A DNA stretch of 64,000 nt from positions 32,001 to 96,000 of IMG/VR virus record IMGVR_UViG_3300045988_167732; one strand, 5' to 3'. The position numbers were made by a program, and so were the translations under genes. The notes under the pieces were generated by a model that was not told the origin of the DNA, did no database searches, and saw nothing but the letters and a program-made list of their open reading frames with translations. This DNA is from a virus. The stretch's first letter is position 1; each line of letters opens with the position of its first letter. Shown one piece after another: positions 3,684 through 27,153 of this stretch.

Positions 3684-3688
3684 TTATA

Positions 3689-6635: not shown

Positions 6636-7355
6636 ATGGCTAATATTTTTAGTCGCAATTACAAGTTTGATGAGCCAAAGGTAACTTCTACTCAGAATAA
6701 GGATTATTTTACTACCGCAGTTGCTTCTACTGATGAAGATGGTAAGATTGTTTCTACTTCTGGTTATGTTTCTGTTTTGAAGCCCAAGGTAATGCATTGT
6801 CCTGACTGTGGTTGTCCTCTTGTGGTGCGTGATGGTAAGCTTGAATTTGCCGATGAAGATGATGAAGTCGATGATAACAGTTATGAAAATCCTGTTGAGT
6901 ACGAAGAAGTAAATAAGGATATGTTCGACCTTCCTCCTTATTACAATATCTGTTATGGTATCCCCGCTGACCTCTCTTTAGGTAGCGATACTGCTCGTAG
7001 ACTTGACAATTATTATCATATTGTTGATAAGATTCCTAATAAGTTTGATGAGCGTTGTGCTGGTGAAGCTATTTGGATTCGGAATTTATTTTTACTTATG
7101 ATTGCTAATAAGAAGTATGAACCAATTACTATGACTAATCTTGAACATTGTGTTGAAGACCTTGCTCAATATTGTATTAATGAAGAGATTTCTTATCTTG
7201 CTATGCCTTTTATTGGGTGTGGTAAGGGTAATCTTGATTGGGAAGATGTTCGTGAAATGATTCTTCGTGTTTTTACTGAAACGATTGAAGATGCTAAAAA
7301 GTTTGACGAGGTAAGCAAGAATTATAAGATTCATCTTACTTTCTGCTACCAGTAA
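6636..7355 (+). CDS. zinc-ribbon protein with possible C-terminal macro-like domain
   Basis: HCPDCGCP ribbon. C-terminal LAMPFIGCGKGNLDWEDV resembles the macro-domain IGcGxgGL loop. AAG/CTT-type codon usage. Confidence 0.5.
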   Translation: MANIFSRNYKFDEPKVTSTQNKDYFTTAVASTDEDGKIVSTSGYVSVLKPKVMHCPDCGCPLVVRDGKLEFADEDDEVDDNSYENPVEYEEVNKDMFDLPPYYNICYGIPADLSLGSDTARRLDNYYHIVDKIPNKFDERCAGEAIWIRNLFLLMIANKKYEPITMTNLEHCVEDLAQYCINEEISYLAMPFIGCGKGNLDWEDVREMILRVFTETIEDAKKFDEVSKNYKIHLTFCYQ

Positions 7356-8390: not shown

Positions 8391-9650
8391 ATGGAATATT
8401 GTAAATATCTTATTTTAGTAGACCCTAATAATAATGGGGTTGATTCAAACAAATTCTACAAAATGGCTGGAAATGGTGATAATACGTTTACTGTAGAATA
8501 TGGTCGTGTTGGTGCTGCTCCTCAAACTAAAACTTATCCTATGTCTAAATGGAATTCTACTCTTTCTTCTAAGTTGAAGAAGGGATATGTTGACCGTTCT
8601 GATTTAATGCAGGAAGTTATTGCTGATTCTAAAGTTGAAGACAAGTCTAATGGTGTAGATGAATTTGGTTTGGTTCAAAACCTATCTGTCCGAGAGATTA
8701 TCAAGCGTCTTTGGGATTATGCTAATAAGACTATTCAATCTGCTTATTCTGTTCGTGCTGAAGCTGTTACTCAGGCTATGATTGATGCCGCTCAGGAAAA
8801 GATTGACTATATTGCAGCGAATTACAAAAACTGGTCTGTTGAGGAATTTAATAAGAATTTAAATGAGTTGTTCATTATTGTTCCTCGTAAGATGAAGCGT
8901 GTTTCTGATTGTCTTGTTTCTGATTCTTCCGAATATGATAAAAAGCTTTCCGAGGAACAGAGCTTGCTTGATACTATGGCTGGTCAAGTTTATAAACCCA
9001 AGGCAAAAATTGCTGACACTGATTCTGAGATTAAGGCTTCTGAAAGCATTTTGCAGAAGATGGGTATTACCATGGAAGAAGCTACTCAGGAAGATGTTGC
9101 TAAAATTAAAAAGGCAATGGGCGATTCTGCTGGGAAGTTTTACAAGGCTTGGCGTGTCACTAATCTTGAGACAGAAAAGAATTATCAGAAGTTTACAACT
9201 GAAAATAATATCGGTAATGTAAAACTTCTTTGCCATGGTAGTCGCAATCAGAATTGGTTTAACATTCTTAAGATGGGCTTGAAAATTCGTCCTGCTGGTG
9301 CAATTGCAACAGGAAGTATGTTTGGCCTTGGAATCTATTGGTCCAACCCTGAAAAGTACAAAGGAGGAGTAGCTAAGTCTATTGGGTACACTTCTTTGGG
9401 TGGATATTGGACTCGTGATTATCAGAATTGTGGCTTCCTTGCCTTCTTTGATGTAGCTATCGGAGATAGTGTTGATGCCTATTCTTTTGATTCCAAGTAT
9501 TATTCTTATAATCTTGAGAGACTAAAAAAGGACAATCCTAAAGCTTGGAGTTTGTGGGCTCATGGCAATACTTCTATGCTTCGCAACGATGAAATTATCG
9601 TTTACGATGACAGACAGATGACTATTCGATATTTAGTGGAGATTAGATAA
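8391..9650 (+). CDS. PARP-like ADP-ribosyltransferase with N-terminal WGR domain
   Basis: WGR-like FYKM..TVEYGRVG. C-terminal H-Y-E pattern: LLCHGS, GLGIYWS, NDEIIVY. Confidence 0.8.
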   Translation: MEYCKYLILVDPNNNGVDSNKFYKMAGNGDNTFTVEYGRVGAAPQTKTYPMSKWNSTLSSKLKKGYVDRSDLMQEVIADSKVEDKSNGVDEFGLVQNLSVREIIKRLWDYANKTIQSAYSVRAEAVTQAMIDAAQEKIDYIAANYKNWSVEEFNKNLNELFIIVPRKMKRVSDCLVSDSSEYDKKLSEEQSLLDTMAGQVYKPKAKIADTDSEIKASESILQKMGITMEEATQEDVAKIKKAMGDSAGKFYKAWRVTNLETEKNYQKFTTENNIGNVKLLCHGSRNQNWFNILKMGLKIRPAGAIATGSMFGLGIYWSNPEKYKGGVAKSIGYTSLGGYWTRDYQNCGFLAFFDVAIGDSVDAYSFDSKYYSYNLERLKKDNPKAWSLWAHGNTSMLRNDEIIVYDDRQMTIRYLVEIR

Positions 9651-10143: not shown

Positions 10144-11020
10144 TGAATAGAAAGAAGTTTTATATGGATGCCTTTTGGGGGATGGAAATTTAAATATTCA
10201 CAAAAGCGCTAAAAATGCTACTTTTTCTTATACTTGTATTGATAAAGAAACGGTAGAAAAAGTTGCTTCTTATTTTACCAAAGATTTTTTCGGTAAGGTA
10301 TCTTTTTGTTAGTATTTTGACAAAAGAACCAATAAGGTTTATAGTCGTTATACTTATAGAACTTTATCATCTCCTGTTTTAACTGAAGAATATTATAATT
10401 GGTATCCCGATAAAAAGAAAATCATACCAAAAATAAATTTTACTCCCTTGATATGTTATTGGTGGTATATAGGTGACGGATGTTTAGATAAAAGACGTAT
10501 TTTTTTAGCGACAGATTGTTTTCCTAAAAGTAATCTGGAAGAAATCGTTTTGCCTAAATTAAACGATTTTTCACCAAGATTAATTAAAAATGGGAAAGAA
10601 ACTCATTTTAGGACTTGTTTTTCAGTTGAACGGTCTCAAAAATTTTTAGAGTATATTGGTGAATGTACTTTACCACATTTTTCTTATAAATGGGATTTTG
10701 TTCCTTTTGTAAATAATAAATATAATTTTTCAGAAAAAGAATAGAAAAATATTCTTTATTTAGCCAATCAAAATTTATCTCCTTTTTAGATTTCTAAAAT
10801 CATTTAGAAATATAATGTAGATACAATACGTTATTTTTTAAAGCAAAAAGGATTATATTCTCCTAAAGGCAACAAAGGCGCTCATTTGAAAACATTAATT
10901 AAAGAAAAAATTAATTCTCGGTTATCAGTGGAATTGATTTTAAAAGATTTAAATATTACTTTAGAACAATATTAGTATTTTTAGGATTTTGAAAAATTGA
11001 GGAATAAATATGGAATATAA
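10130..11020 (+). CDS. LAGLIDADG homing endonuclease with C-terminal HTH-like tail; needs read-through of 7 in-frame TAG codons
   Basis: Two LAGLIDADG-type motifs (LLGDGNL, WYIGDGCL) lie in one frame interrupted only by TAG. The frame continues past 10744 into LSPFxISKII..DTIRYFLK and ends at TAA 11018. Confidence 0.8.
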
Positions 11021-11834
11021 GACATTAGGTGACAGGATGAAGGGGGCTTATGAAAACAAATATCGTAATTATCTTCCTGAGAATCTTCCTGTTATCATAA
11101 GAGAAGACGGTGCTCATTTTCACAATTTCTGCCGTGGCATGAAGAAACCTTTCGACCCTATTTTTGTTAAAACCATGCAACAGACTATGCTTAAGCTCTG
11201 TGAACTTATTCCTAATGTTAAGTTTGGTTATGTTGAGTCTGATGAAATTTCTCTTGTCATGATTCAAAGTGAAAGAAATTCTCAGCCTTGGTTTGATAAT
11301 AATATTCAAAAGATTGTTAGTACATCTGCGGCTCTTTGCACTCTTTGGTTTAACAATTATTTTGCTGAGAATACTATTATTGATACAACCTTGGATATCT
11401 TTAATATAGACAAAGATTCTTACGATTGGAAAATGGTTCGTAAAGGACAAGAAATGCCTACTTTTGATAGTAGAGTATTTGTGGTCCCTGCCTTTGAAGT
11501 GCATAATTATTTTGTTTGGAGACAGCAGGATTGTACTCGAAATTCTATTCAGGCAGTTGCTCAATCTTTGTATTCTCAAAAAGAACTTCATGGTATTAAT
11601 ACTACCAAATTACAGGATAAGATGTTTACTGAAAAGGGTGTAAACTGGAACGATTATACGACAGTAGAGAAACGTGGTACTTGTGCTTATCGTATTCCTA
11701 CTACTGTTATTGGTAAAGATGGTCAAGAGACTATTCGTTATAAATGGATTCTTGATTATGAAATGCCAATTTTAACAAGTGAAGAAGGTAAAGACTTTAT
11801 TAGTCAGAAGGTATTTACCAATGAGTCTGTTTAA
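11010..11834 (+). CDS. Thg1-like protein (tRNA-His guanylyltransferase / 3'-5' polymerase family)
   Basis: GDRMKxYE, IREDGAHFHNF and FGYVESDEISLV match the Thg1 N-terminal catalytic motifs. Confidence 0.8.
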   Translation: MEYKTLGDRMKGAYENKYRNYLPENLPVIIREDGAHFHNFCRGMKKPFDPIFVKTMQQTMLKLCELIPNVKFGYVESDEISLVMIQSERNSQPWFDNNIQKIVSTSAALCTLWFNNYFAENTIIDTTLDIFNIDKDSYDWKMVRKGQEMPTFDSRVFVVPAFEVHNYFVWRQQDCTRNSIQAVAQSLYSQKELHGINTTKLQDKMFTEKGVNWNDYTTVEKRGTCAYRIPTTVIGKDGQETIRYKWILDYEMPILTSEEGKDFISQKVFTNESV

Positions 11835-12291: not shown

Positions 12292-12819
12292 ATGCAGTTT
12301 CAAGTTATGAGTCGTAGAGATTGTGTTAAGTATAGTTATGGTTCTCATGAAGAATCTTCTATTGTAATTAGCATTAACGATTCTGCCGATATTGGAGTGC
12401 GTCAACTTCCTAATAAATTTAATAACATTAAAGCGCAATTATCTCTCTTTTTTGATGACATTCAGCCATATAGAGGTATGAAATACTGGAAGAAAGATGA
12501 AGGCGTAATTATAGAAAATTATACAAACGCAGAGGGGTTTGTATATGAGTCTCGCATGTATCAGCTTATGACTGAAAAAGATGCTAAGAAAATTATTGAT
12601 TTTGTCAATAAATGGTATAATAAAGTAGACAAAATTATTGTACATTGCAATGCTGGAATTAGTCGTTCTTCTGGTGTTTGCGCTGGTATTATGAAATGTT
12701 TTACAGGTGATGATAGTCAGATTTATGATAATCCATATTATCATCCCAATACCTTGTGTTATAATTTAATTTTAAATGAATATTATAAGGAAGGAGGAAA
12801 AAGTAATGGAGACGCTTAA
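12292..12819 (+). CDS. Cys-based phosphatase (PTP/dual-specificity, CX5R)
   Basis: Active-site signature VHCNAGISRSSG. Confidence 0.75.
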   Translation: MQFQVMSRRDCVKYSYGSHEESSIVISINDSADIGVRQLPNKFNNIKAQLSLFFDDIQPYRGMKYWKKDEGVIIENYTNAEGFVYESRMYQLMTEKDAKKIIDFVNKWYNKVDKIIVHCNAGISRSSGVCAGIMKCFTGDDSQIYDNPYYHPNTLCYNLILNEYYKEGGKSNGDA

Positions 12820-15544: not shown

Positions 15545-16018
15545 ATGTCAGTGTCTATTATTCAAGGCGATGTCCTTAAGACTTCGGCAAAGTATATTTG
15601 TCATCAGGTTAATACCTTTGGCGTAATGGGCGCTGGTGTTGCTCTTCAAATTAAGAAGAATTATCCTCATGTTTATTTGGAGTATAATAAATTTTGTAGT
15701 TATCATGCTCCTGAAGAGCTTTATGGCAAAGTTCTTCGAATTGAAGAAAATAAAGATAAAGTTTTTCTTAATATGTTTTCTCAGATTGGTATTGGCGGAC
15801 CAAACGTAAACACCAATTATGAATATTTTCATGAATGTCTTCTTAAGATTCGTGAAATGATTCCTATTGGAGAAGAGATTGCTATGCCTTATATGATTGG
15901 ATGTGGTCTTGCTGGTGGAGATTGGTCTATTATTAGCGCAGATATTTCTGACACTTTAGGACTAAGCCATATTGTACGTTTGTATGATTTTAATGGCGTG
16001 ACTTCGGTGAAAAAGTAA
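15545..16018 (+). CDS. macro domain protein (ADP-ribose binding/hydrolase)
   Basis: IQGDVL..ICHQVNTFGVMGAGVA and IGCGLAGGDW are classic macro-domain motifs. Confidence 0.85.
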   Translation: MSVSIIQGDVLKTSAKYICHQVNTFGVMGAGVALQIKKNYPHVYLEYNKFCSYHAPEELYGKVLRIEENKDKVFLNMFSQIGIGGPNVNTNYEYFHECLLKIREMIPIGEEIAMPYMIGCGLAGGDWSIISADISDTLGLSHIVRLYDFNGVTSVKK

Positions 16019-16559: not shown

Positions 16560-16704
16560 GCAGGATTAGTGTTAGCGGTTAGCACGACGGTCTTCCCCTT
16601 TAATAGTTTAATGTAAAACCAATATGAAAATATTGATGTAAGTTCAAATCTTATTTAAAGGTCCAAAACCGTAAGGGCGAGTTCGAATCTCGTATCTTGC
16701 TCCA
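16560..16704 (+). tRNA. tRNA-Gly(TCC) interrupted in the anticodon loop by a 69-nt tRNA-like element
   Basis: Acceptor GCAGGAT/ATCTTGC, D-stem GTGT/GCAC, anticodon stem ACGGT/ACCGT, T-arm GCGAG-TTCGAAT-CTCGT, discriminator T plus CCA. Removing 16597-16665 leaves the loop CTTCCAA. Confidence 0.75.
16597..16665 (+). ncRNA. nested tRNA-like element (acceptor, D-arm, GAAA hairpin, T-arm, TCCA end)
   Basis: CCTTTAA/TTAAAGG acceptor, GTTT/AAAC D-stem, CAATAT-GAAA-ATATTG hairpin, GTAAG-TTCAAAT-CTTAT T-arm, then T-CCA. Confidence 0.7.
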
Positions 16705-17466: not shown

Positions 17467-17589
17467 TTGACACTCACAGCAAATTTATTTTATGTTTTTG
17501 GAATAACGTCGTGTAAGGTTCGACTCCTTATTAACAAATCCCTTGAGCAAGGAATAGTTAACCGTAGATGGCTAGAAAAAAAGTGTTAA
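17467..17589 (+). ncRNA. P1/ACAGCAA structured RNA, copy 1 (contains T-arm-like hairpin)
   Basis: TTGACACT..AGTGTTAA closing stem, CACAGCAA after the 5' arm, internal TAAGG-TTCGACT-CCTTA, A-run before the 3' arm. Confidence 0.65.
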
Positions 17590-17688: not shown

Positions 17689-17809
17689 CAGAATTTATTA
17701 TAGCTGCTCGTAATAAATTCGTAGTATTAGAAGCAGTAAAGGTACGAGTATGGTATCCGGCACGGGAATGGTCGTTAAGGGCGAGATAAAGCTGAGCTCC
17801 CTTTTATAT

Positions 17810-17928
17810 CCTCATTAGTGTAATGGTGCATTCTCGTTAACTGATGTTGAGTAAACACTAAGGTAGCTCCTTAGCGATAACAGCCACATTGGGAGAGGAA
17901 GTTGGTTCGAATCCAATTATGGGGTCCA
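17810..17928 (+). tRNA. tRNA-like gene with a ~45-nt insertion in the anticodon region; isotype unresolved
   Basis: Acceptor CCTCATT/TATGGGG (6 of 7 pairs), T-arm GTTGG-TTCGAAT-CCAAT, T-CCA end, candidate anticodon stem TCTCG/TGGGA flanking a 52-nt segment. Confidence 0.4.
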
Positions 17929-18530
17929 GTAACTACGATACCGTCTTATAAAGATGGAAGTTCGCCTAACAGATGGAGTATCGCTTAATGTTAGGATGTG
18001 TATATGGCGCAACTAAGTTCAGACCGTCCAGAACCTACAACCATATTAGCGGTGACAGCTTGGAGAGACAGCAAATATGCGGAACTGGTGTAGTAATAAA
18101 AATAGCCATGGACAATATTTTTATTATGTTTGGAGTTCGATTCTTCTCTGCCGCTCCAAAAGACAGAATGGTTAGATATTTCTTGATGTCTTTTCAAAAA
18201 ACAAGAAATCCGTAAGATATAGTACGAAACTTATCTTGGAATACAGTTTAGCTGGTTACAATGTATTCGACACTGAACCGCCCTCCAAGTCTGATGGACT
18301 GGTAACAATAGAAAGACCGCTGTTTATTCAATCGGGTGCGTTAAGCCCTTATACAATAACAAGACTGATGATGAAAATGACCAAGATAATTGGGTGCAAG
18401 TTTGCTGAAATATTTCTGTAGACCTCTCCCTAATCGAACCGAGGGCAGATAAGTGGAAAGCTGGTCTGTCAGTAGTCATTAGTTTTTGTTTTGTGTACCT
18501 TTAATAAAATAAAAATAAAAGGGTGTTTTT

Positions 18531-18851: not shown

Positions 18852-19116
18852 GAAATATATTAAGAAGCCAGTTACCATTGAAGCTATTATTTGGGATGGT
18901 GCTAATGAAGCTGAAATTATGGAATTCGTTGGTGCTCATTGCTGTGTTACTACTCAGCATACTATTAATGGTACTGTAACTAATCTTATCATTAATACTC
19001 TTGAGGGAGACCATTATGCTTCTGTTGGCGATTATATCGTTAAGGGAATTAAAGGTGAGTTTTATCCTGTTAAGCCTGATATTATGAAATTGACTTATGA
19101 TGAGGTTACGGAGTAA
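18844..19116 (+). CDS. conserved phage small protein (GDYIV..GE.YP.KPDI..TY motif)
   Basis: Overlapping start. The motif is recalled from other phage proteins of unknown function. Confidence 0.65.
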   Translation: MIKKYIKKPVTIEAIIWDGANEAEIMEFVGAHCCVTTQHTINGTVTNLIINTLEGDHYASVGDYIVKGIKGEFYPVKPDIMKLTYDEVTE

Positions 19117-19553
19117 TGGATACTTCTTTGTTTGAAATTGTAGGTCATTATTATATTTGGACTGGTGAAATTACTAAATTCCGAGTTGATGATATTCTAA
19201 GAGATAAAGAATTTAATTATTGGTATAAGATAGATTCTGAAACTATTGAATATCCTTGGGAAGTTCGCATTTTAGATGCTACTCAAGTTTGGACTAATGC
19301 TGATTGTTATCAAGATAGTACATCGGGTAAATGGATTTATAGATGTATTCCTTATGATGGTTTAATCTTTAGTCTCGAAGCTAATTCTATGACAGAATTA
19401 GTAGACCTTATTAGAGATTTTGTTACTCCTCCTGAAGACAAAGAAGAAGAACTTGTTGCAAGTTCTAATCATAGTTGCTTTACTAATCAGGTTTCGATGT
19501 GCGTAAGAAAAAATTCTGATAAAAATTCTAATAAAGACTTGACAAAGATTTAA
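19116..19553 (+). CDS. hypothetical protein
   Basis: TAATG overlap with the upstream gene. Confidence 0.7.
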   Translation: MDTSLFEIVGHYYIWTGEITKFRVDDILRDKEFNYWYKIDSETIEYPWEVRILDATQVWTNADCYQDSTSGKWIYRCIPYDGLIFSLEANSMTELVDLIRDFVTPPEDKEEELVASSNHSCFTNQVSMCVRKNSDKNSNKDLTKI

Positions 19554-19651
19554 AAGTGTGGTAAGATAAATATATCTTAAGAGAAGAGAAAAATAAAAAC
19601 TTCTCAAAAAGATAAAAAGTAAAAAAGCAAAAAGAAAATTTTAATAAGTGG

Positions 19652-19680
19652 TTGACATCTTAAAGATGATATGCTATAAT
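19652..19680 (+). promoter_or_regulatory. consensus sigma70 promoter driving a P1 element and tRNA-Glu
   Basis: TTGACA-N17-TATAAT, exact consensus. Confidence 0.75.
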
Positions 19681-19716
19681 AAGTGCATAAGTAAAACCTC
19701 CTGATTCATTAAAAAG

Positions 19717-19832
19717 TAGACTCTTACAGCAAATTCCTAAAAAGGTTAACACAATTGTCTGCAAAACAATCATTAGCGAGTTCGATTCTCGTCAGAGGGC
19801 GCTCTGTGGTGAATAATACGCAAAAGAGTCTA
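19717..19832 (+). ncRNA. P1/ACAGCAA structured RNA, copy 2 (T-arm plus closed acceptor-like hairpin)
   Basis: TAGACTCT..AGAGTCTA stem, TACAGCAA, GCGAG-TTCGATT-CTCGT followed by the CAGAG-GGCG-CTCTG hairpin. Confidence 0.7.
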
Positions 19833-19841
19833 GGTTAATAT

Positions 19842-19917
19842 GCTCGGTTAGTCAAGTGGTCTAAGACGGCGGGTTTTCATCCCGTAAACAAGAGTTCGAT
19901 TCTCTTACCGAGTACCA
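19842..19917 (+). tRNA. tRNA-Glu(TTC), CCA encoded
   Basis: Anticodon loop TTTTCAT, T-loop TTCGATT. Confidence 0.8.
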
Positions 19918-20092
19918 TTATTCAAATCAGAAATCCGTTCTTATGATAGTGAGAGTAAGTTTTATCGGATTTAAATGAGGGGAACTTAAATCTATCGAAG
20001 GGTTAAGAAATAATTGTTTGACGAAAAGTTGTTTCTCCTTTCTCTCTATCTGATATGAATAATTTCCTTTCTGTAAGATGATATTTATAAAG

Positions 20093-20224
20093 TAGAGACT
20101 AACAGCAATTTTGAAAATATGTTAAAAAGCCAAGCTCCCATTCTTCGGTTCGAATCCGAACGTCTTCAGTTGAAGTATGTAGCCAAGTGGTTTAAGGCAG
20201 GAGTCCATAACAACAATGTCTCTA
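20093..20224 (+). ncRNA. P1/ACAGCAA structured RNA, copy 3 (circularly permuted tRNA-like fold)
   Basis: TAGAGAC..GTCTCTA stem. Order of parts: GCTCC, T-arm TTCGG-TTCGAAT-CCGAA, short closed acceptor hairpin CTTC-AGTT-GAAG, D-arm-like AGCCAAGTGGTTTAAGGC, then GGAGT pairing back to GCTCC. Confidence 0.7.
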
Positions 20225-20232
20225 GTATTTAT

Positions 20233-20375
20233 GCCCGTGTAGCTCAGTAGGAAGAGCACTTGCCTTGATGGAGTAGTATAAGAAATACATCCTATAAAGG
20301 AAGGTGTGAGTTCAAATCTCATTTTCATCACCGTTAAGCAAGGAGTCGAGAGTTCGAGCCTCTCCACGAGCACCA
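20233..20375 (+). tRNA. tRNA-Lys(TTT) (alternative reading Asn-GTT) interrupted by a 67-nt tRNA-like element
   Basis: Canonical D and T arms, anticodon stem CTTGC/GCAAG, discriminator A plus CCA, one C-A mismatch in the acceptor. Removing 20267-20333 leaves CTTTTAA. Confidence 0.65.
20267..20333 (+). ncRNA. nested tRNA-like element (ACCG end)
   Basis: GATGGAG/TTTCATC acceptor, GTAT-AAGAA-ATAC D-arm, GTGAG-TTCAAAT-CTCAT T-arm. Confidence 0.65.
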
Positions 20376-20411
20376 ATAGCAGAAATGCTAATTTTGTAAT
20401 GACTTCAATAG

Positions 20412-20474
20412 TAGACGCTTGCAGCAATTTTAATTGTACTTATCTGTTAAATAAGAATGCATAAAAAGCGTCTA
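20412..20474 (+). ncRNA. P1/ACAGCAA structured RNA, copy 4 (minimal, 63 nt)
   Basis: TAGACGCT..AGCGTCTA 8-bp stem, TGCAGCAA, A-run before the 3' arm. Confidence 0.6.
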
Positions 20475-20503
20475 GCCCCTTTCTAAAAGGAGAAATTAAA
20501 AAT

Positions 20504-20588
20504 GGGTGAGTAGTGAATCGGCAAACACGGGAGTCTGTAAAACTCTTTCTTAACGGAGTAGAAGGGTCGGCACCTTCCTCACCCACCA
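20504..20588 (+). tRNA. tRNA-Tyr(GTA), class II, CCA encoded
   Basis: Anticodon loop CTGTAAA, long variable arm, unusual T-loop GTCGGCA. Confidence 0.8.
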
Positions 20589-20607
20589 CTTTAAAGGAGA
20601 AAATATT

Positions 20608-20778
20608 ATGGGTTTCATGGGAGAAATTTCAGAAGATATTGGTTGGAATGATTGTATTAATTATCTTCTAAAGAATGTTGATAAATTTCAAGAGACTTTA
20701 GATGGTGGAGCTTATGATTATTTTCCCGACGAAGAAATCAAAGAAGCTTTAAAGAAGCTAATTAGACCAGAAATCTAA
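20608..20778 (+). CDS. hypothetical small protein (56 aa)
   Basis: AAAGGAG SD 7 nt upstream of the ATG, TAA stop. Below the ORF-track size cutoff. Confidence 0.55.
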   Translation: MGFMGEISEDIGWNDCINYLLKNVDKFQETLDGGAYDYFPDEEIKEALKKLIRPEI

Positions 20779-20800
20779 TAAAATTTTTGTTTTAAAACTC

Positions 20801-20829
20801 TTGACAAAATGAAAATTTTGCGCTATAGT
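20801..20829 (+). promoter_or_regulatory. sigma70-type promoter
   Basis: TTGACA-N17-TATAGT. Confidence 0.7.
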
Positions 20830-20907
20830 AAAAATATGATAAAGATACAAATTTATTTGTAAGCTAATTGTTCATTTTTTATTGTTCATAAAAGCATTCC
20901 TTTCAGG

Positions 20908-21036
20908 TAGACTCTAACAGCAACTTTACAATCACAAATGCTATGGGCCTGTTTGTTGGAGGTTCGAATCCTTCACTCCCGACCATCGGGAGTTAGCTCA
21001 ACGGATAGAGCAACAGATTTTGTAAAAATGAGTCTA
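20908..21036 (+). ncRNA. P1/ACAGCAA structured RNA, copy 5: circularly permuted tRNA (3' half-ACCA-T-5' half)
   Basis: TAGACTC..GAGTCTA stem. GGAGG-TTCGAAT-CCTTC T-arm, ACTCCCG-A-CCA, one T, then CGGGAGT-TA-GCTC..GAGC D-arm and a U-rich anticodon-like segment. The acceptor is a perfect 7 bp. Confidence 0.7.
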
Positions 21037-21099
21037 GTCAATAAATTAATAAATTGACGCTCCTATTTTTCTAATAGGCAAATATAAATTCCTTTCAAG

Positions 21100-21215
21100 T
21101 AGACACGTACAGCAAAATTACTTGATGCTTTAATATGGAAAATTAACGATAAGGTTCGACTCCTTAATCTTCTTTTGAAGATGCGTGGTTGCTGGAAATC
21201 AAAAAAACGTGTCTA
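21100..21215 (+). ncRNA. P1/ACAGCAA structured RNA, copy 6 (T-arm plus closed acceptor-like hairpin)
   Basis: TAGACACG..CGTGTCTA stem, CAGCAA pairs with TTGCTG, TAAGG-TTCGACT-CCTTA followed by ATCTTC-TTTT-GAAGAT. Confidence 0.7.
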
Positions 21216-21225
21216 GGTTAAGTAT

Positions 21226-21310
21226 GGCTGAGTGGCGAAATTGGCAGACGCAGTTGCTTCAAGTACAACCCTCGAAAGAGATGTGGGTTCAAGTCCCACC
21301 TCAGCTACCA
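21226..21310 (+). tRNA. tRNA-Leu(CAA), class II, CCA encoded
   Basis: Anticodon loop TTCAAGT, long variable arm, T-loop TTCAAGT. Confidence 0.75.
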
Positions 21311-21852
21311 AAGTTACAGTTCAATTGGCAGATAGCGAATGTAACTTATATTAAACTGCCCGATTCAGCAAGGATGGCTAAAGCCTTGTCGGTGTTCCAT
21401 ATATTTGAACTCATCTTTAGTCCGTTAAGCTAAAGCCCCAACGCCCGTCCGAAGTCTTGGAGTAGAGAACAAGTGAATGGTTCTCGAACGCAAAGTAAGC
21501 TGTCACAAGCTGAAAAAGGCTATAAGCCGCACATGGGTAGAACACAGATATATGGTGAGAGATGTTAGGGTGCGAATGTAACATCAAAAACCTACAGCGA
21601 AAAGCTATACGGAGAAGTCTGTGCCGTGTTTACGGGAATAGGTAGTTGCGTACCTATTCAAACAAAAACTCTGATTACTGCAACTAAATCGGGGTAGGTA
21701 TTGAGGTTATGGGTCATGTAACCTTAAAACACAATAAGCCGAGCATACTGCTTATTGCTCCTAACAGGTGGTGCTGAGGATGAACAACAAAAGCCAAGTT
21801 ATAGAGTTCTTGTAAAAAACTCTGTTGCTATTTGAAAGAATAGCTCAATTAT

Positions 21853-21928
21853 GGGCCTGTAACTCAGTTGGGAGAGTGTCTGCTTTGCACGCAGGAAGTC
21901 GCAAGTTCAAGTCTTGTCAGGTCCACCA
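21853..21928 (+). tRNA. tRNA-Ala(TGC), CCA encoded
   Basis: G3-U70 pair present, anticodon loop TTTGCAC. Confidence 0.85.
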
Positions 21929-22384
21929 TAAGAGTTAGTTGCTCTCTTAGGATAAAAAAAGCACCGTATTAACACGAGTTTACGATAATTAACTGGCCCT
22001 CGTCTGCGGGTAAACAGCAGTTTTAGGCTACTATAAGCCGAAGTTTTAAGGGCAGTTTCTTTAAAAAACATGCATATGGTTTTTCTTGTTATCTCTTTTT
22101 TATCCTAAAAATAGACGTAGCAGCATGACTTGAGGCTATACATCAAGCTCCTGAGACCGAAGAAAAAAAGCTCCCTGTATCGTCAATGGGAAAATAATCT
22201 ATCTGTTCCGTAATAACAGGTGGGAGGGAGTATTTTAGGTCGGCAAGACCACGAGAGGATAGCGCTGTTCTCTCAACCCTTTGCAAAGGTTGCTGATGGG
22301 TTTTCCAAACGGATGTGGAAATTAAATGAATGGAAGGGTATAATTCAGCCCAAAATCAGCTCTAAAATTCAAGAAAATATATTT

Positions 22385-22462
22385 GGGTGTGTAGTTCAGT
22401 CTGGTCAGAACACTTGACCGTTAATCAAGGAGTCGAAGGTTCAAATCCTTCCATACCCGCCA
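22385..22462 (+). tRNA. tRNA-Asn(GTT), CCA encoded
   Basis: Anticodon loop CCGTTAA, discriminator G. Confidence 0.8.
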
Positions 22463-22815
22463 AAAGTGGAGAGTGTAGGTTCGAGTCCTGCCCCGCTCGT
22501 GGGAAACCCTTGCAGGAAGCTGTTAGGTACAGCGCCACTTAGAATTTCTTTCACCTTATTACGCGAAATATGGGATTGAGATGTTGCTTTAGTCGGGTTC
22601 TTTTACAGCAGAAAATAAGAACGCACCTGTTTAATTGGGTTTTTCAGCACAGTAAAAACAAGAAAAACCTCGGTTGTTTAGAAATTTTCTTCTGATATTG
22701 AACGAAAACAAATAGAGAATTCTCTCATTGCAATGCCGAAAGGTAGTAAGTTACGAATTTACCCATGATAAATTACGAACTTGCTACCGAGTAGGGATAA
22801 GAGAGAATTAAACAT

Positions 22816-23966: not shown

Positions 23967-24098
23967 GCTTTCGTGGCTCAATCGGTAGAGCGCCTGATTT
24001 GATAGAGTGACAGAATGTATTGTCTTAGTTTGCAAGTTCAAGTCTTGCCTTTATCACCAGTAATCAGGATGTTGCAGGTTCGAGTCCTGTCGGAAGCT
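23967..24098 (+). tRNA. tRNA-Thr(TGT) interrupted by a 59-nt tRNA-like element; host CCA not encoded
   Basis: Acceptor GCTTTCG/CGGAAGC, anticodon stem CCTGA/TCAGG. Removing 24001-24059 leaves TTTGTAA. Confidence 0.75.
24001..24059 (+). ncRNA. nested tRNA-like element (ACCA end)
   Basis: GATAGAG/CTTTATC acceptor, GACA/TGTC D-stem, 7-nt linker, GCAAG-TTCAAGT-CTTGC T-arm, A-CCA. Confidence 0.7.
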
Positions 24099-25445: not shown

Positions 25446-25564
25446 TAGACGCTTACAGCAAACAATAATAAAATCAAATTCTATAAAAAAGATTTATGGT
25501 ATTGTTCCTTGCTAATTAGTTTATGATGCTTTCATGATTCTCCTTTGTTAGTATTATGCGTCTA
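25446..25564 (+). ncRNA. P1/ACAGCAA structured RNA, copy 7
   Basis: TAGACGC..GCGTCTA stem, TTACAGCAA. AGCAAACAATA can pair with TATTGTTCCTTGCT. Confidence 0.6.
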
Positions 25565-25696: not shown

Positions 25697-25759
25697 TAAA
25701 CCCTTACAGCAATTTAATTATTTAATTTTTGCTTGAAAAAAGATTAAGGATAGGGTTTA
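25697..25759 (+). ncRNA. P1/ACAGCAA structured RNA, copy 8 (minimal)
   Basis: TAAACCCT..AGGGTTTA stem, TACAGCAA. Confidence 0.6.
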
Positions 25760-25779: not shown

Positions 25780-25865
25780 TAGACACATACAGCAATTAAA
25801 ATAAAAATACTGGGAAATATATTTAATTGGAATAAATACTTTTTTTAGATTTTTTATTGTGTCTA
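25780..25865 (+). ncRNA. P1/ACAGCAA structured RNA, copy 9
   Basis: TAGACACA..TGTGTCTA stem, TACAGCAA. Confidence 0.6.
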
Positions 25866-25876
25866 GGATTTTATAT

Positions 25877-26010
25877 GCTGATATAGCTCAATAGGTTAGA
25901 GCTTCCGACCACGAAATAGCTTAAGAAAAGCAAAGGATGTAAGTTCAAATCTTACTTTCGTGACCATTATAATCGGAGGGTTGAGTGTTCGAGCCACTCT
26001 ATCAGCACCA
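25877..26010 (+). tRNA. tRNA-Ile(TAT) interrupted by a 57-nt tRNA-like element
   Basis: Canonical arms, anticodon stem TCCGA/TCGGA, A-CCA end. Removing 25910-25966 leaves CTTATAA. Confidence 0.75.
25910..25966 (+). ncRNA. nested tRNA-like element (ACCA end, no anticodon arm)
   Basis: CACGAAA/TTTCGTG acceptor, GCTT-AAGAA-AAGC D-arm, 7-nt linker, GTAAG-TTCAAAT-CTTAC T-arm, A-CCA. Confidence 0.75.
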
Positions 26011-26107: not shown

Positions 26108-26905
26108 ATGATTGAGTTAACTGAAGAACAGAAAAAATTAGAATTGTCAAATGATAATTGGAAAATTGTTCCAAATTGGTCAAGATATGAAGTAAATTAG
26201 TATCGGATTCTACGAAACAAAAAAACCAAACATATTTTAACATCAAAAGATAATAAGAGAGGATATTTAATTTATCTTGTTCTTAGAGATGATGATAACA
26301 GAATTCACATTTTGTCAAAACATAAAGCTGTAGCTTTGGCATGGGTTCCCAACCCCTAGAATTTACCTATTATAAATCACAAAGACGAAGACAAATTAAA
26401 TTGCTTTTATTAGAATTTAGAATGGTGTACAAGCAGTTATAATAACAGTTACAACGGGACAGGTAAAAAGAGAAGTGAAAAATTTAAAAAGACTTTTTTT
26501 GTTTATGATTCTGAGCGGAATTTAATAGAAAAAAGAAAAGGCATAAATGAATTTTGCGCAGAAAATAATTTATCTTCTCGGTGTGCTAGTTCTATTTTAA
26601 AAAAGAATAGTGAAGAAGAAAAATGTTATAGTATAAAAGGATTTTATCTTTTTTACGAACAAATAACAAAAGAAGATTTTTTATAGAGAAAGCAAAAAGT
26701 TTTTAATATAGGGAATTTAGGCAAAAAGAAATTTTCTAAAAAAGTTTATCAATATGATTTACAAAACAATCTTCTTCAAATTTATTCTAGTGTACATGAA
26801 GTTAAAGAGAAAAATGATTTAGCTACAACGTCAGTAATAAGTGCTTGTTGTAGAAATAAAATAAAAACTGCTTATGGATATAAATGGAGTTATGTTCCAT
26901 TATAA
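26108..26905 (+). CDS. HNH/NUMOD-type homing endonuclease (4 in-frame TAG)
   Basis: W..VPNWSRYEV, GY..YL, VHR-like KHKAVALAWVPNP, NHKDEDKLN..NLEW, C-terminal AYGYKWSY. All lie in one frame broken only by TAG. Confidence 0.8.
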
Positions 26906-26919
26906 ACAAAAAAATAAAG

Positions 26920-26987
26920 TAGACTCTTACAGCAATTACTTAGAGACTTGTGATTTGGGATTACATATGTTTTGAAAAATGAGTCTA
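26920..26987 (+). ncRNA. P1/ACAGCAA structured RNA, copy 10 (minimal)
   Basis: TAGACTC..GAGTCTA stem, TTACAGCAA, A-run before the 3' arm. Confidence 0.6.
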
Positions 26988-27078: not shown

Positions 27079-27153
27079 TGAGGAGTAGCATAGCGGCAAA
27101 TGCACTAGTCTCTAAAACTAGGTAAACAGGGTCGGCACCTGTCTCCTCTGCCA
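27079..27153 (+). tRNA. suppressor tRNA, anticodon CTA (reads UAG)
   Basis: Anticodon arm CTAGT-CTCTAAA-ACTAG, T-arm ACAGG-GTCGGCA-CCTGT, G-CCA end. D-loop, anticodon arm and T-loop closely resemble the phage tRNA-Tyr, but the long variable arm is missing. Positions 1:72 form a T-T mismatch. Confidence 0.75.

What the first reader, a model, noticed from the sequence alone, without database searches (positions are those of the whole stretch)
20093..20224. Permuted tRNA-like fold with a closed acceptor (YrlA-like topology) in a P1 element
Reading 5' to 3' inside the TAGAGAC/GTCTCTA stem: GCTCC, a 5-nt variable loop, T-arm TTCGG-TTCGAAT-CCGAA, a short acceptor-like hairpin CTTC-AGTT-GAAG, a class-II-like D-arm AGCCAAGTGGTTTAAGGC, then GGAGT pairing back to GCTCC. 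All tRNA core elements are present except free acceptor ends and an anticodon loop. The RNA should therefore mimic tRNA shape but could not be charged.
Basis: seen in the sequence. Interest (0 to 1): 0.7.

Follow-up and report, generated by a model that had tools for sequence, protein, structure and literature searches.

The report
Phage tRNA-mimic RNA with Ro-protein handle
This stretch of a gut phage genome encodes a small RNA shaped like a tRNA with its usual ends sealed shut, carried inside a conserved "handle" that sits next to a Ro60-like protein gene in many phages, so it is probably that protein's RNA partner.

Summary
Window 20093-20224 (+) is a 7-bp closing stem (P1) around a complete tRNA core in permuted order: anticodon-stem 3' strand, variable loop, T arm, closed 7-bp acceptor hairpin with one bulge, U8-A9, D arm, anticodon-stem 5' strand. 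Rejoined in normal order, ARAGORN calls it a tRNA. Orthologues and four divergent metagenomic groups keep the helices through compensatory changes.

P1 is followed by a conserved (Y)ACAGCAA. This handle occurs 11 times in the window: ten in the tRNA array and one in the 5' UTR of a DUF2828+vWA gene. The ten best matches to that protein's AlphaFold model are all Ro60.

The same handle lies beside DUF2828 genes in 9 of 10 other phage loci sampled and in 40 of 46 bacterial-genome loci. It often carries a tRNA mimic, in two circular permutations.

The element therefore works like YrlA, the Ro60-bound tRNA-mimic Y RNA. It is not a member of Rfam YrlA: there is no hit, the GNCGAA motif is absent, and Pfam does not call the protein TROVE. 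Protein binding and biological role are inferred, not shown.

Verdict: new variant of a known kind; interest 0.7.

The parts
20093..20099 (+). P1 handle, 5' strand (UAGAGAC)
   Evidence: Pairs with 20218-20224. In the ten paralogues the equivalent stem changes sequence but stays complementary.
20100..20108 (+). Conserved UAACAGCAA motif directly 3' of the P1 5' strand; the invariant core is CAGCAA at 20103-20108
   Evidence: Present in all 11 P1 elements of the window. Also present in handles beside DUF2828 genes in distant phages.
20109..20133 (+). A/U-rich linker containing AUGUUAA, possibly a degenerate anticodon-arm remnant
   Evidence: Length varies among orthologues. L233 has a paired GCU-AUGUUAA-AGC hairpin at the same place. 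Homology is inferred.
20134..20138 (+). Anticodon-like stem, 3' strand (GCUCC)
   Evidence: Pairs with 20200-20204. The terminal pair toggles between G.U, A-U and G-C in orthologues; one sequence has A.C.
20139..20143 (+). Variable loop CAUUC; its last C is the C48 partner of G15
   Evidence: Read from the sequence.
20144..20160 (+). T arm UUCGG-UUCGAAU-CCGAA
   Evidence: T stem is 100% paired with covariation at three positions across 19 relatives. U-A becomes C-G in L055/L169.
20161..20179 (+). Closed acceptor-like hairpin CGUCUUC-AGUU-GAAG(U)AUG: 7 bp, bulged U at 20176, 4-nt loop
   Evidence: MFE fold. Compensatory CGU/AUG to CAC/GUG; the bulged base varies U/A/C. In other groups unrelated sequences at this position fold into 4-8 bp hairpins.
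20180..20181 (+). U8-A9 connector
   Evidence: Read from the sequence. T and G are invariant in alignment A2 at the U8 and G10 positions.
20182..20199 (+). D arm GCC-AAGUGGUUUAA-GGC plus A26 (holds A14, G15, G18, G19)
   Evidence: Read from the sequence. ARAGORN accepts it as a D arm once the halves are rejoined.
20200..20204 (+). Anticodon-like stem, 5' strand (GGAGU)
   Evidence: Pairs with 20134-20138.
20205..20217 (+). 3' linker CCAUAACAACAAU, opposite the ACAGCAA strand
   Evidence: The equivalent segment is A-rich in 8 of the 11 window handles (read).
20218..20224 (+). P1 handle, 3' strand (GUCUCUA); a conserved G follows, and the next tRNA gene starts about 8 nt later at 20233
17467..17589 (+). 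Paralogous P1 element with T arm plus hairpin
19717..19832 (+). Paralogous P1 element with T arm plus closed hairpin; precedes tRNA-Glu
20412..20474 (+). Paralogous P1 element without a tRNA-like insert; precedes tRNA-Tyr
20908..21036 (+). Paralogous P1 element with a full tRNA mimic; the acceptor hairpin loop reads ACCAU
   Evidence: Rfam YrlA 41.4 bits. ARAGORN calls the rejoined halves a tRNA.
21100..21215 (+). Paralogous P1 element with T arm plus 6-bp closed hairpin; precedes tRNA-Leu
25446..25564 (+). Paralogous P1 element, no tRNA-like insert
25697..25759 (+). Paralogous P1 element, no tRNA-like insert
25780..25865 (+). Paralogous P1 element, no tRNA-like insert
26920..26987 (+). Paralogous P1 element, no tRNA-like insert
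39340..39399 (+). P1 handle in the 5' UTR of the Ro60-like gene. It lies about 20 nt downstream of a TTGACA-17-TATAGT promoter and ends about 10 nt before the Shine-Dalgarno sequence.
39423..41144 (+). DUF2828 + DUF7788/vWA protein, Ro60-like fold (phrog_850 'RNA-binding protein')
   Evidence: Pfam, PHROGs, AF2 model. The ten best Foldseek PDB matches are all Ro60, E 7e-7 to 3e-5.
19652..19680 (+). Consensus sigma-70 promoter of the transcript that carries the finding
   Evidence: 12/12 match. The next promoter is at 20801 and there is no terminator in between.

Best explanation
The element is a Y-RNA-like non-coding RNA made of two modules.

Module 1 is a handle: a 7-10 bp helix formed by the RNA's two flanks, with (Y)ACAGCAA directly after the 5' strand and usually an A-rich run before the 3' strand. 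It is the predicted binding site for the phage's Ro60-like DUF2828 protein.

Module 2 is a circularly permuted tRNA core. It has a T arm, a loop-closed acceptor helix, a D arm and an anticodon-like stem that leads into the handle. It should fold into the tRNA L-shape and present a tRNA elbow, but it has no anticodon loop and no free CCA end.

The RNA is transcribed within a polycistronic tRNA precursor. It would be released when RNase P and 3' processing excise the neighbouring tRNAs.

By analogy with Ro60-YrlA, the RNA would tether the Ro-like ring to a factor that recognises tRNA shape, or gate access to that ring. The same handle in the protein's own 5' UTR would allow autoregulation.

Shown here: the fold, its conservation and covariation, the multi-copy handle family, the Ro60-like fold of the protein, and the genomic linkage of handle and DUF2828 across many phage lineages.

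Inferred: that the protein binds the handle, where the RNA ends lie, which factor the tRNA mimic recruits, and the biological role. The likely role is tRNA or RNA quality control, or counter-defence.
For: Fold:
- All helices are at the stated coordinates.
- The rejoined halves are called a tRNA by ARAGORN.
- Helices covary across five divergent groups retrieved with a pattern that fixed only ACAGCAA, the T loop and the D loop.

Handle family:
- Eleven copies lie on the + strand of the window, with stems that differ in sequence yet stay complementary.
- Five copies carry a T arm followed by a closed hairpin.

Protein:
- The ten best PDB matches to the DUF2828+vWA model are all Ro60: Xenopus, human, Deinococcus Rsr and Thermus phage phiLo.
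- GenBank annotators call its homologues 'Ro-like RNA binding protein'.

Linkage:
- The handle sits in the gene's 5' UTR in the window and in relatives with 55% protein identity, with entirely different stem sequences.
- It lies upstream or immediately downstream of the gene, on the same strand and often in 2-4 tandem copies, in Bacillus PJN02, Enterococcus VRE9_2, Listeria P100, Campylobacter NCTC12673, Salmonella BPS15Q2 (Felixounavirus), Mycobacterium LeBron and Staphylococcus S-CoN_Ph7.
- 40 of 46 DUF2828 loci from bacterial genomes and MAGs have one within 800 nt upstream or 600 nt downstream. Background is 0.18 per kb.
- Handles carrying a tRNA mimic lie beside the gene in BPS15Q2, LeBron (YrlA 39.8 bits), L190, L233 and others; in PJN02 the mimic lies about 2 kb upstream in the adjacent tRNA array.

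Permutation:
- In L226, L196, L228, L192 and L222 the same parts occur in standard tRNA order, with the handle as a closed hairpin after the D arm.
- The spatial pairing of handle and tRNA body is therefore what is conserved, not the strand order.

Precedent:
- Ro60 binds Y RNAs encoded next to its gene, and YrlA has this topology (PMC4201824; bioRxiv 10.1101/312249).
- Phage phiLo Ro60 binds two Y-like RNAs encoded upstream of its gene and engages host PNPase (PMC12135203).
- Felixounavirus Bas63 gp130 is Ro60-like, lies just upstream of tRNA genes and counters the Ppl defence system (PMC11482910).

Context:
- Thg1-like, phosphatase, macro and PARP-like genes flank the tRNA array.
Against: - No binding, expression or processing data exist; every functional step is inferred.
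- The finding's element is about 19 kb from the DUF2828 gene, whereas YrlA is normally within 4 kb of Ro60.
- It gives no Rfam YrlA hit, and the best related elements stay below the gathering score (32-41 bits against 69).
- The handle motif ACAGCAA differs from the GNCGAA or CGAA motif known to contact Ro60.
- The protein is not TROVE by Pfam. The structural match has only moderate TM-scores (0.35-0.45), from a model with mean pLDDT 69.
- Handles sit about 8-30 nt upstream of ordinary tRNAs, so they could be cis-acting leader elements instead.
- My handle detector requires a perfect stem, so the stems it reports are selected for pairing. Only the enrichment over background, and the stems of elements found by other criteria, count as independent evidence.
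Confidence: 0.6

Rival explanations
1. The P1 elements, including this one, are cis-acting leader or spacer modules of the polycistronic tRNA precursor. They would guide or time RNase P, RNase E or RNase Z processing, or stabilise the precursor. The tRNA-like insert would be an extra entry site for processing enzymes. Linkage to DUF2828 would then reflect a shared operon, not binding.
For: - In the window, handles end about 8-30 nt before tRNA 5' ends.
- The same arrangement is seen in the Felixounavirus tRNA array.
- The finding lies inside one transcript between tRNA-Glu and the next tRNA.
Against: - Handles also occur with no tRNA downstream, in the 5' UTR of DUF2828 mRNAs in many lineages and in tandem copies.
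- Ten tRNAs in the window have no handle.
- The 7-10 bp stems are too short for RNase III.
- The conserved single-stranded CAGCAA points to sequence-specific recognition.
Confidence: 0.18
2. The RNA is a stand-alone tRNA decoy. Independently of the Ro-like protein, it would soak up a host factor that recognises tRNA shape, such as a tRNA-targeting defence nuclease, a modification enzyme or RNase P.
For: - The tRNA core is complete but has no anticodon loop, so it could not be cut by anticodon nucleases.
- The phage invests heavily in tRNAs and in tRNA-repair-type genes such as a Thg1-like protein.
Against: - This does not explain why the mimic is always framed by, or fused to, the CAGCAA handle, in both circular permutations.
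- It does not explain why handles lacking any tRNA mimic are equally conserved.
Confidence: 0.12
3. The element is a non-functional relic of a tandem tRNA duplication: the 3' half of copy 1 fused to the 5' half of copy 2.
For: - Tandem duplication is the standard origin model for permuted tRNA genes.
- The paralogue at 20908 still reads ...ACUCCCG-A-CCA-U-CGGGAGU..., which is a 3' CCA end abutting a 5' end.
Against: - The element is conserved in 14 IMG/VR contigs and many metagenome contigs.
- Compensatory changes occur in every helix, and the architecture is kept in five groups whose stems share no sequence.
Confidence: 0.05
4. The element is a genuine circularly permuted tRNA gene that is matured into a decoding tRNA through circularisation and re-opening at the acceptor, as in Cyanidioschyzon.
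For: - The 3' half lies upstream of the 5' half, and the core is canonical.
Against: - No 7-nt anticodon loop can be assembled from the flanks: CCAUAAC... on one side and ...GCCAA on the other, with no U33 context.
- No bulge-helix-bulge motif was seen by reading the flanks. Bacteria are not known to have the splicing endonuclease this pathway needs (my own knowledge).
- The acceptor linker is only 4 nt and has no CCA.
- Related elements lack the anticodon-like stem altogether (group 3).
Confidence: 0.02

Closest known systems
YrlA (Rfam RF02553), the tRNA-mimic Y RNA bound by bacterial Ro60/Rsr (Chen et al. 2014, PMC4201824; crystal structure, bioRxiv 10.1101/312249)
   Same: - Module order is identical: an outer helix formed by the flanks, an anticodon-like stem, variable loop, T arm, loop-closed acceptor-like hairpin, U-A, D arm.
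- The same tertiary-contact nucleotides are present.
- It is encoded on the same strand as a Ro60-fold protein gene.
- A sister element scores 41 bits against the YrlA model.
   Different: - The finding itself gives no hit, and all related elements stay below the gathering score.
- The GNCGAA Ro-binding motif is absent and ACAGCAA takes its place.
- The partner protein is DUF2828, not Pfam TROVE.
- There are many copies per genome, embedded in a tRNA array, and this copy is 19 kb from the protein gene.
- The family also exists in non-permuted order.
Phage Ro60 with Y-like RNAs: Thermus phage phiLo Ro60 with Yrl1/Yrl2 (PMC12135203) and mycobacteriophage YrlA (PMC4201824)
   Same: - A phage-encoded Ro60-fold protein has small structured RNAs encoded next to its gene, each with a 5'-3' stem flanking an internal loop that holds a conserved motif.
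- phiLo Ro60 (PDB 9l5y) is among the top structural matches to the window's protein.
   Different: - Those RNAs use a CGAA motif.
- I found no mention of a tRNA-like module in Yrl1/Yrl2 in the passages of that paper I read.
- Those proteins are recognised as Ro60/TROVE, whereas the protein here belongs to the much larger phrog_850/DUF2828 family (695 GenBank phage records).
Felixounavirus Bas63 gp130 (PhageMaP preprint, PMC11482910)
   Same: - It is a Ro60-like phage protein directly upstream of a tRNA gene block.
- The authors guess that some 'tRNAs' there are Y RNAs.
- Another Felixounavirus (BPS15Q2) has four CAGCAA handles in that block, one holding a tRNA mimic.
   Different: - No RNA partner was identified in that work.
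- That gp130 is the DUF2828 orthologue is my inference from genus and synteny; I did not test it.
- Its reported role, countering the Ppl defence system, is untested for the phage in this window.
Circularly permuted tRNA genes of Cyanidioschyzon merolae
   Same: The 3' half of a tRNA is encoded upstream of the 5' half, and a tandem-duplication origin is plausible.
   Different: Those genes are processed through a circular intermediate into normal decoding tRNAs. Here there is no anticodon loop, no recognisable BHB motif on reading the flanks, and only a 4-nt closed acceptor loop.
Two-piece tmRNA from permuted ssrA genes
   Same: A permuted tRNA-like domain in which the T arm and acceptor 3' strand precede the acceptor 5' strand.
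   Different: The finding shows no tag reading frame or pseudoknots. ARAGORN finds no tmRNA in the window and Rfam tmRNA gives no hit there.

Membership tests
YrlA (Rfam RF02553) | Scores at or above the family's gathering threshold (69 bits) with the Rfam covariance model | tested here: not met
   The finding's element gives no YrlA match at E <= 10 in 19900-20520. The paralogue at 20931-21029 scores 41.4 bits.
YrlA (Rfam RF02553) | tRNA-like domain in the order T arm, closed acceptor-like stem-loop, D arm, with an anticodon-like stem leading outward | tested here: met
   Coordinates read. Supported by the MFE fold, ARAGORN on the rejoined halves and covariation.
YrlA (Rfam RF02553) | Nucleotides for the tRNA tertiary contacts: U8-A14, R15-Y48, G18/G19 with U55/C56, and the T-loop U54-A58 | tested here: met
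   U20180, A20186, G20187 with C20143, G20189/G20190, and T loop UUCGAAU at 20149-20155. The 3D fold itself was not testable.
YrlA (Rfam RF02553) | GNCGAAN0-1G motif near the 5' end, the proposed Rsr contact (PMC4201824) | tested here: not met
   The motif is absent from 20093-20133. UAACAGCAA occupies that position.
YrlA (Rfam RF02553) | Encoded within about 4 kb of a TROVE-domain Ro60 gene on the same strand | tested here: not met
   The strand is the same, but the gene is 19 kb away and Pfam calls it DUF2828/DUF7788/vWA, not TROVE. In other genomes, related handle-plus-mimic RNAs do lie within 0.1-0.7 kb of DUF2828 genes.
YrlA (Rfam RF02553) | Bound by Ro60/Rsr in vivo, and modified by TruB and DusA | not testable with these tools
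   Needs immunoprecipitation and modification mapping.
Y RNA in the broad sense (RNA partner of a Ro60-fold protein) | Helix formed by the 5' and 3' regions, carrying a conserved sequence next to an internal loop, plus a variable effector module | tested here: met
   P1 stem plus ACAGCAA, with an interior of 10-140 nt, seen in 11 window copies and in many lineages.
Y RNA in the broad sense (RNA partner of a Ro60-fold protein) | A Ro60-fold protein is encoded by the same genome and its gene is linked to the RNA genes | tested here: met
   The ten best Foldseek matches are all Ro60. The handle is in the gene's own 5' UTR. Linkage holds in 9 of 10 other phage loci sampled and in 40 of 46 bacterial-genome loci.
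Y RNA in the broad sense (RNA partner of a Ro60-fold protein) | Physical binding of the RNA to the protein | not testable with these tools
   Needs EMSA, RIP or cryo-EM.
Circularly permuted tRNA gene that yields a decoding tRNA | The flanks can be joined to give a 7-nt anticodon loop, with a processing motif at the junction | tested here: not met
   The flanks CCAUAAC... and ...GCCAA give no U33/R37 loop. I saw no BHB motif on reading the flanks, but ran no formal motif search.
tRNA (Rfam RF00005 / ARAGORN) | Detected as a tRNA in its native order | tested here: not met
   Neither ARAGORN nor Rfam tRNA gives a hit over 20093-20224.
Junction of two tandem tRNA genes (the false-positive class noted by Chen et al. 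2014) | The T arm and D arm belong to two separate complete tRNAs | tested here: not met
   Only a 4-nt loop separates the two acceptor strands, and no upstream D arm or downstream T arm partner exists.

The most novel reading that the evidence does not exclude
The stem-plus-CAGCAA handle may define a large, so far undescribed class of phage ribonucleoproteins. In this reading the DUF2828 (phrog_850) Ro60-like protein, present in roughly 700 sequenced phages including Felixounavirus, Listeria P100, cluster L mycobacteriophages, Staphylococcus and Campylobacter phages, binds handle-tagged RNAs: tRNA mimics in two natural circular permutations, tRNA leaders, and its own mRNA. These RNPs would act in tRNA surveillance or as a counter-defence device. 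They would be the missing RNA component behind the anti-Ppl activity reported for Bas63 gp130.
Probability: 0.35. Interest if true: 0.85.

Novelty: new variant of a known kind. Interest (0 to 1): 0.7.

Why it matters
Ro60-Y RNA particles are known from animals, bacteria and a few phages. The much larger phage family of Ro60-like DUF2828 proteins has no known RNA partner and no known mechanism.

One member of that family was recently reported to counter a bacterial defence system. Its authors could only guess that nearby 'tRNAs' might be Y RNAs (PMC11482910).

This finding, followed outward, supplies a concrete and testable candidate: a short handle (helix plus CAGCAA) that marks RNAs next to these genes across very distant phages. 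The handle is often fused to a tRNA mimic.

The family also offers a natural pair of circular permutations of one RNA architecture. That is useful for working out which spatial arrangement the protein reads.

If binding is confirmed, hundreds of mis-annotated or unannotated stretches in phage tRNA arrays would gain an identity.

Tried and rejected
- **DNA similarity to GenBank phages.** A distant-mode search with 19000-22000 matched only ordinary tRNAs and an unrelated dUTPase-like stretch, so there is no close cultured relative.
- **Rfam on the element at E <= 10.** Only noise came back (snoR09, rli22 and similar). No ribozyme, riboswitch, Y RNA or tmRNA family matched.
- **Permuted tRNA with a free CCA.** I first read the paralogue at 20908 this way because its loop is ACCAU. 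The YrlA alignment and the perfect 8-bp hairpin show it is a closed acceptor. RNase P opening remains possible.
- **Self-cleaving ribozyme, antitermination site or RNase III site as the identity of P1.** I dropped these. There are no Rfam hits. There are several copies per transcript and tandem copies in mRNA leaders. The stems are only 7-10 bp.
- **Sequence search of the DUF2828 protein against PDB.** It found nothing; only the fold comparison showed Ro60.
- **The IMG/VR scan with GTAGACNNNTACAGCAA.** It returned mostly chance single hits; only loci with several matches were relatives.
- **A covariance model built without the window's clade.** I abandoned it because MAFFT could not align the length-variable linkers and acceptor loops well enough (alignment A3). 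No model was built, so family membership rests on anatomy and pair counts, not on a model E-value.
- **Literature.** Searches for DUF2828, Ro-like phage proteins and permuted tRNA in phages found no description of the handle. The supplement of Chen et al. 2014 listing the 22 phages is not held. Two reviews by the Wolin laboratory are not held.
Full report
**1. The observation**

- P1 stem: UAGAGAC (20093-20099) pairs with GUCUCUA (20218-20224).
- Anticodon-like stem: GCUCC (20134-20138) pairs with GGAGU (20200-20204).
- Variable loop: CAUUC (20139-20143).
- T arm: UUCGG-UUCGAAU-CCGAA (20144-20160).
- Hairpin: 20161-20179.
- U-A connector: 20180-20181.
- D arm: GCC-AAGUGGUUUAA-GGC (20182-20198), followed by A26.

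One detail changes. The acceptor-like hairpin is not 4 bp. It is 7 bp with a bulged U: CGUCUUC-AGUU-GAAG(U)AUG.

The minimum-free-energy fold reproduces this four-way junction. Its energy is unremarkable, however (z = -1.3 against shuffles), so the single-sequence fold proves little on its own.

ARAGORN and Rfam find 16 ordinary tRNAs in the window and nothing over this element. When the two halves are rejoined in normal tRNA order around any 7-nt loop, ARAGORN calls a tRNA; in the native order it does not.

The nucleotides that make the tRNA tertiary contacts are all present: U8, A14, G15 with C48, G18, G19, and U54-U55-C56 with A58.

No credible ORF covers the region. The only candidates are a 43-aa + strand ORF and a 101-aa - strand ORF that runs across tRNA genes. 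Orthologues also differ by indels.

**2. Conservation**

A pattern scan of IMG/VR found 14 orthologues in related 116-216 kb viral contigs.
- The most divergent (L055/L169) changes the T stem from U-A to C-G.
- It changes the outer acceptor pairs from CGU/AUG to CAC/GUG.
- The bulged base varies (U, A or C).
- The terminal anticodon-stem pair toggles between G.U, A-U and G-C. One sequence has A.C.

A metagenome scan fixed only ACAGCAA, the T-loop core and the D-loop core. It returned 35 loci falling into five groups whose stems share no sequence. Among 14 distinct combinations, every T stem is fully paired. Every segment between the T arm and the D arm folds on its own into a 4-8 bp hairpin.

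On an alignment of 19 diverse cores, the pair counts were as follows.

| Measure | Real alignment | Shuffled | Partners slid |
|---|---|---|---|
| Cells paired (T stem plus three outer acceptor pairs) | 94.7% | 63.9% | 30-52% |
| Covariation score | 0.84 | 0.20 | 0.09-0.21 |

The fold is real and under selection.

**3. The frame around it**

The P1 stem belongs to a repeated element. Eleven copies lie on the + strand.
- Ten are inside the tRNA array: 17467, 19717, 20093, 20412, 20908, 21100, 25446, 25697, 25780 and 26920.
- One is at 39340-39399.

Each copy has a 7-10 bp stem whose inner bases differ between copies but stay complementary. (Y)ACAGCAA follows the 5' strand directly, and usually an A-rich run precedes the 3' strand. 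The interior ranges from about 30 to about 110 nt.

Five copies hold a T arm followed by a closed hairpin. Two of them, the finding and 20908-21036, hold a complete tRNA core.

The element at 20931-21029 matches Rfam YrlA at 41.4 bits, E = 2e-6 in a 15-kb search and below the gathering score of 69. The finding's own element gives no YrlA hit even at E <= 10.

The finding sits in one transcript. A perfect sigma-70 promoter lies at 19652-19680, with no terminator before the next promoter at 20801. The order along that transcript is: P1, tRNA-Glu, P1 (the finding), an interrupted tRNA, P1, tRNA-Tyr, a small ORF.

**4. The protein**

The eleventh handle lies in the 5' UTR of the ORF at 39423-41144. 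It is about 20 nt downstream of a TTGACA-17-TATAGT promoter and ends about 10 nt before the ribosome-binding site.
- Pfam calls the protein DUF2828 + DUF7788 + vWA, not TROVE.
- PHROGs calls it phrog_850, 'RNA-binding protein'.
- A sequence search against PDB finds nothing.
- An AlphaFold model built on 25 homologues has mean pLDDT 69.
- Its ten best PDB matches by Foldseek are all Ro60, aligned over the full length. They are Xenopus and human Ro60, Deinococcus Rsr and Thermus phage phiLo Ro60, with E from 7e-7 to 3e-5 and TM-scores of 0.35-0.45.

**5. Linkage of handle and protein beyond this phage**

Homologues of the protein occur in 695 GenBank phage records. Some are annotated 'Ro-like RNA binding protein'.

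I sampled ten loci. A handle, defined as a perfect stem of at least 7 bp plus CAGCAA on the same strand, lies in the following places.
- In the leader of the gene in two metagenomic relatives with 55% protein identity. Their stems are entirely different: UAUGCCU and CGACCG, the latter only 6 bp.
- Upstream in Bacillus phage PJN02 and Enterococcus phage VRE9_2.
- Upstream in three tandem copies in Listeria phage P100.
- Upstream in two copies in Campylobacter phage NCTC12673.
- Immediately downstream, in three or four copies, in Salmonella phage BPS15Q2 (a Felixounavirus, inside its tRNA block), Mycobacterium phage LeBron and a Staphylococcus phage.

Only Vibrio phage nt-1 lacked a clear stem.

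A scan of bacterial genomes with the protein alignment gave 46 loci, mostly Lachnospiraceae and Clostridia contigs. Forty have at least one handle within 800 nt upstream or 600 nt downstream on the same strand, often two to five. Background is 0.18 per kb.

Handles that enclose a T arm, a closed hairpin and a D arm sit next to the gene in BPS15Q2, LeBron (YrlA 39.8 bits), L190 and L233. In Bacillus PJN02 the mimic lies about 2 kb upstream, in the adjacent tRNA array.

One limit applies. My detector requires perfect stems, so the stems it reports are selected for pairing. The independent evidence is the enrichment over background. It is backed by the stems of elements that were found by other criteria.

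**6. Two circular permutations**

In L226, L196, L228, L192 and L222 the units upstream of the DUF2828 gene are in standard tRNA order. The parts run: acceptor 5' strand, D arm, A-rich run, handle strand X, tetraloop, handle strand Y, AUGCAGCAA, an anticodon-like arm, T arm, acceptor 3' strand.

The acceptor strands pair 7 of 7 across each unit. Rfam's tRNA model scores these units at 42-50 bits, aligned over about 110-125 nt against a 71-position model.

These units hold the same parts as the window's element, but the chain is broken at a different place. In them the handle is a closed hairpin and the acceptor is open. In the window the handle is open and the acceptor is closed. What is conserved is the spatial pairing of the handle with a tRNA-shaped body.

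**7. How it most likely works**

*Shown:* a conserved permuted tRNA fold; a multi-copy handle family; a Ro60-fold protein; and tight, lineage-spanning linkage of handle and protein gene.

*Established elsewhere:*
- Ro60 proteins bind Y RNAs through a helix formed by the RNA's ends. These RNAs are encoded beside the Ro60 gene.
- The YrlA subfamily carries this permuted tRNA mimic, which is modified by TruB and DusA.
- The M. smegmatis YrlA, with a 7-bp acceptor stem, is opened by RNase P and receives CCA (PMC4201824; bioRxiv 10.1101/312249).
- Thermus phage phiLo Ro60 binds two Y-like RNAs encoded upstream of its gene and forms complexes with host PNPase (PMC12135203).

*Inferred:*
- The DUF2828 protein binds the stem-plus-CAGCAA handle.
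- The handle RNAs are released from the tRNA precursor by RNase P and 3' processing of the neighbouring tRNAs.
- The tRNA mimic presents an elbow to a tRNA-recognising factor, or gates the ring.
- The handle in the gene's own leader, next to the ribosome-binding site, allows autoregulation.

Context fits a role in tRNA or RNA surveillance, or in counter-defence.
- Thg1-like, dual-specificity phosphatase, macro and PARP-like genes lie just upstream of the array.
- In Felixounavirus Bas63, a Ro60-like gp130 directly upstream of the tRNA genes was reported to counter the Ppl defence system. Its authors guessed that some of those 'tRNAs' are Y RNAs (PMC11482910).
- The gene-plus-array block is conserved in about 250 Felixounavirus-type records.
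- That gp130 is the DUF2828 orthologue is my inference.

I put 0.6 on this composite explanation. The structural part is close to certain. The binding and the role are not.

**8. Rivals**

| Rival reading | Confidence | Main point for | Main point against |
|---|---|---|---|
| cis-acting tRNA-leader or processing module | 0.18 | Handles lie 8-30 nt before tRNAs | Handles also occur in mRNA leaders and tandem arrays with no tRNA; ten window tRNAs lack one |
| Stand-alone tRNA decoy | 0.12 | Complete core with no anticodon loop to cut | Does not explain the obligatory handle |
| Relic of a tandem tRNA duplication | 0.05 | Plausible origin; the 20908 loop still reads A-CCA-U | Compensatory evolution in every helix |
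| True permuted tRNA gene | 0.02 | 3' half precedes 5' half | No anticodon loop or processing motif can be assembled |

**9. Comparison with what is known, and novelty**

The element works like YrlA, but it fails three tested membership criteria: the Rfam threshold, the GNCGAA motif, and proximity to a TROVE-annotated gene.

It is best filed as a new variant of the Ro60-Y RNA kind. It has a different handle motif and a divergent Ro60-like protein family. It occurs in many copies embedded in tRNA arrays. It exists in two natural circular permutations.

I found no description of the handle in the searchable literature. That library is incomplete, and the phage table of Chen et al. 2014 could not be read.

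**10. Verdict**

Observation confirmed. Interpretation supported, with the caveats above. Novelty: new variant of a known kind. Interest 0.7.

Noticed in passing
window 16560-16704, 20233-20375, 23967-24098, 25877-26010: Four tRNA genes have their anticodon loop interrupted by a 55-66-nt 'mini-tRNA'. The insert has a 7-bp acceptor, a D arm and a T arm, lacks a normal anticodon arm, and ends in ACCA or ACCG.

Removing the insert restores a perfect 7-nt loop in three of the four, with the insert position marked by a bar:
- CTT|TTAA, Lys-UUU;
- TTT|GTAA, Thr-UGU;
- C|TTATAA, Ile-UAU.

Three of the inner units are the extra Rfam tRNA hits at 16597-16662, 20267-20330 and 25910-25963.

Cuts by RNase P and RNase Z at the insert would leave 3'-OH and 5'-P halves, which are the ends an Rnl-type ligase joins. 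This is an idea only. One literature search found nothing similar.
   Followed up: partly
window 26108-26905 and 27079-27153: The ORF at 26108-26905 has four in-frame TAG codons and ends with TAA. A suppressor tRNA with anticodon CUA lies just downstream. The phage probably reads TAG as a sense codon, so standard ORF lists split some of its genes.
   Followed up: partly
window 17690-18480, 21310-21850, 21930-22380, 22460-22810: Long ORF-free stretches lie between tRNAs. The three I profiled (21310-22380 and part of 22460-22810's neighbourhood) are more GC-rich than their surroundings and look like large structured RNAs. None matches any Rfam family, including GOLLD and ROOL.
   Followed up: no
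window 6636-7355, 8391-9650, 11010-11834, 12292-12819, 15545-16018: A cluster of RNA-repair or ADP-ribose-type genes lies just upstream of, and inside, the tRNA array: two macro-domain proteins, a PARP-catalytic + WGR protein, a Thg1-like tRNA 5'-end polymerase and a dual-specificity phosphatase.
   Followed up: partly
window 19970-20059: The spacer between tRNA-Glu and the finding gives a weak C/D-box-like match (snoR09, 33 bits, E = 0.005 in a 621-nt search), with AUGAGG...CUGA boxes. This is probably chance; I did not examine it further.
   Followed up: no
window 3680-6388 and 62183-63502: The UvrD-type helicase gene carries an intein-like insert (Intein_splicing, residues 294-586). A TnpB/OrfB_IS605 gene lies near the end of the window.
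   Followed up: no
L141 920-1471 (Listeria phage P100): A ROOL RNA match just below threshold (86 bits against 99) lies among the tRNAs, about 1 kb upstream of the three handles and the DUF2828 gene.
   Followed up: no
L139 about 3773-3835 (Enterococcus phage VRE9_2): A tRNA-like unit without an anticodon arm (acceptor, D arm, T arm) lies immediately 5' of the handle that precedes the DUF2828 gene. In this phage the gene sits inside the tRNA array.
   Followed up: no
L154, L157, L162, L164, L165, L178, L187 (metagenome contigs): In this group the handle encloses the T arm, a closed acceptor, the D arm and also a closed anticodon-like arm (GAUGU-CUAACAA-ACAUC). The chain break therefore lies in the variable region, which makes a third permutation of the same parts.
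   Followed up: partly
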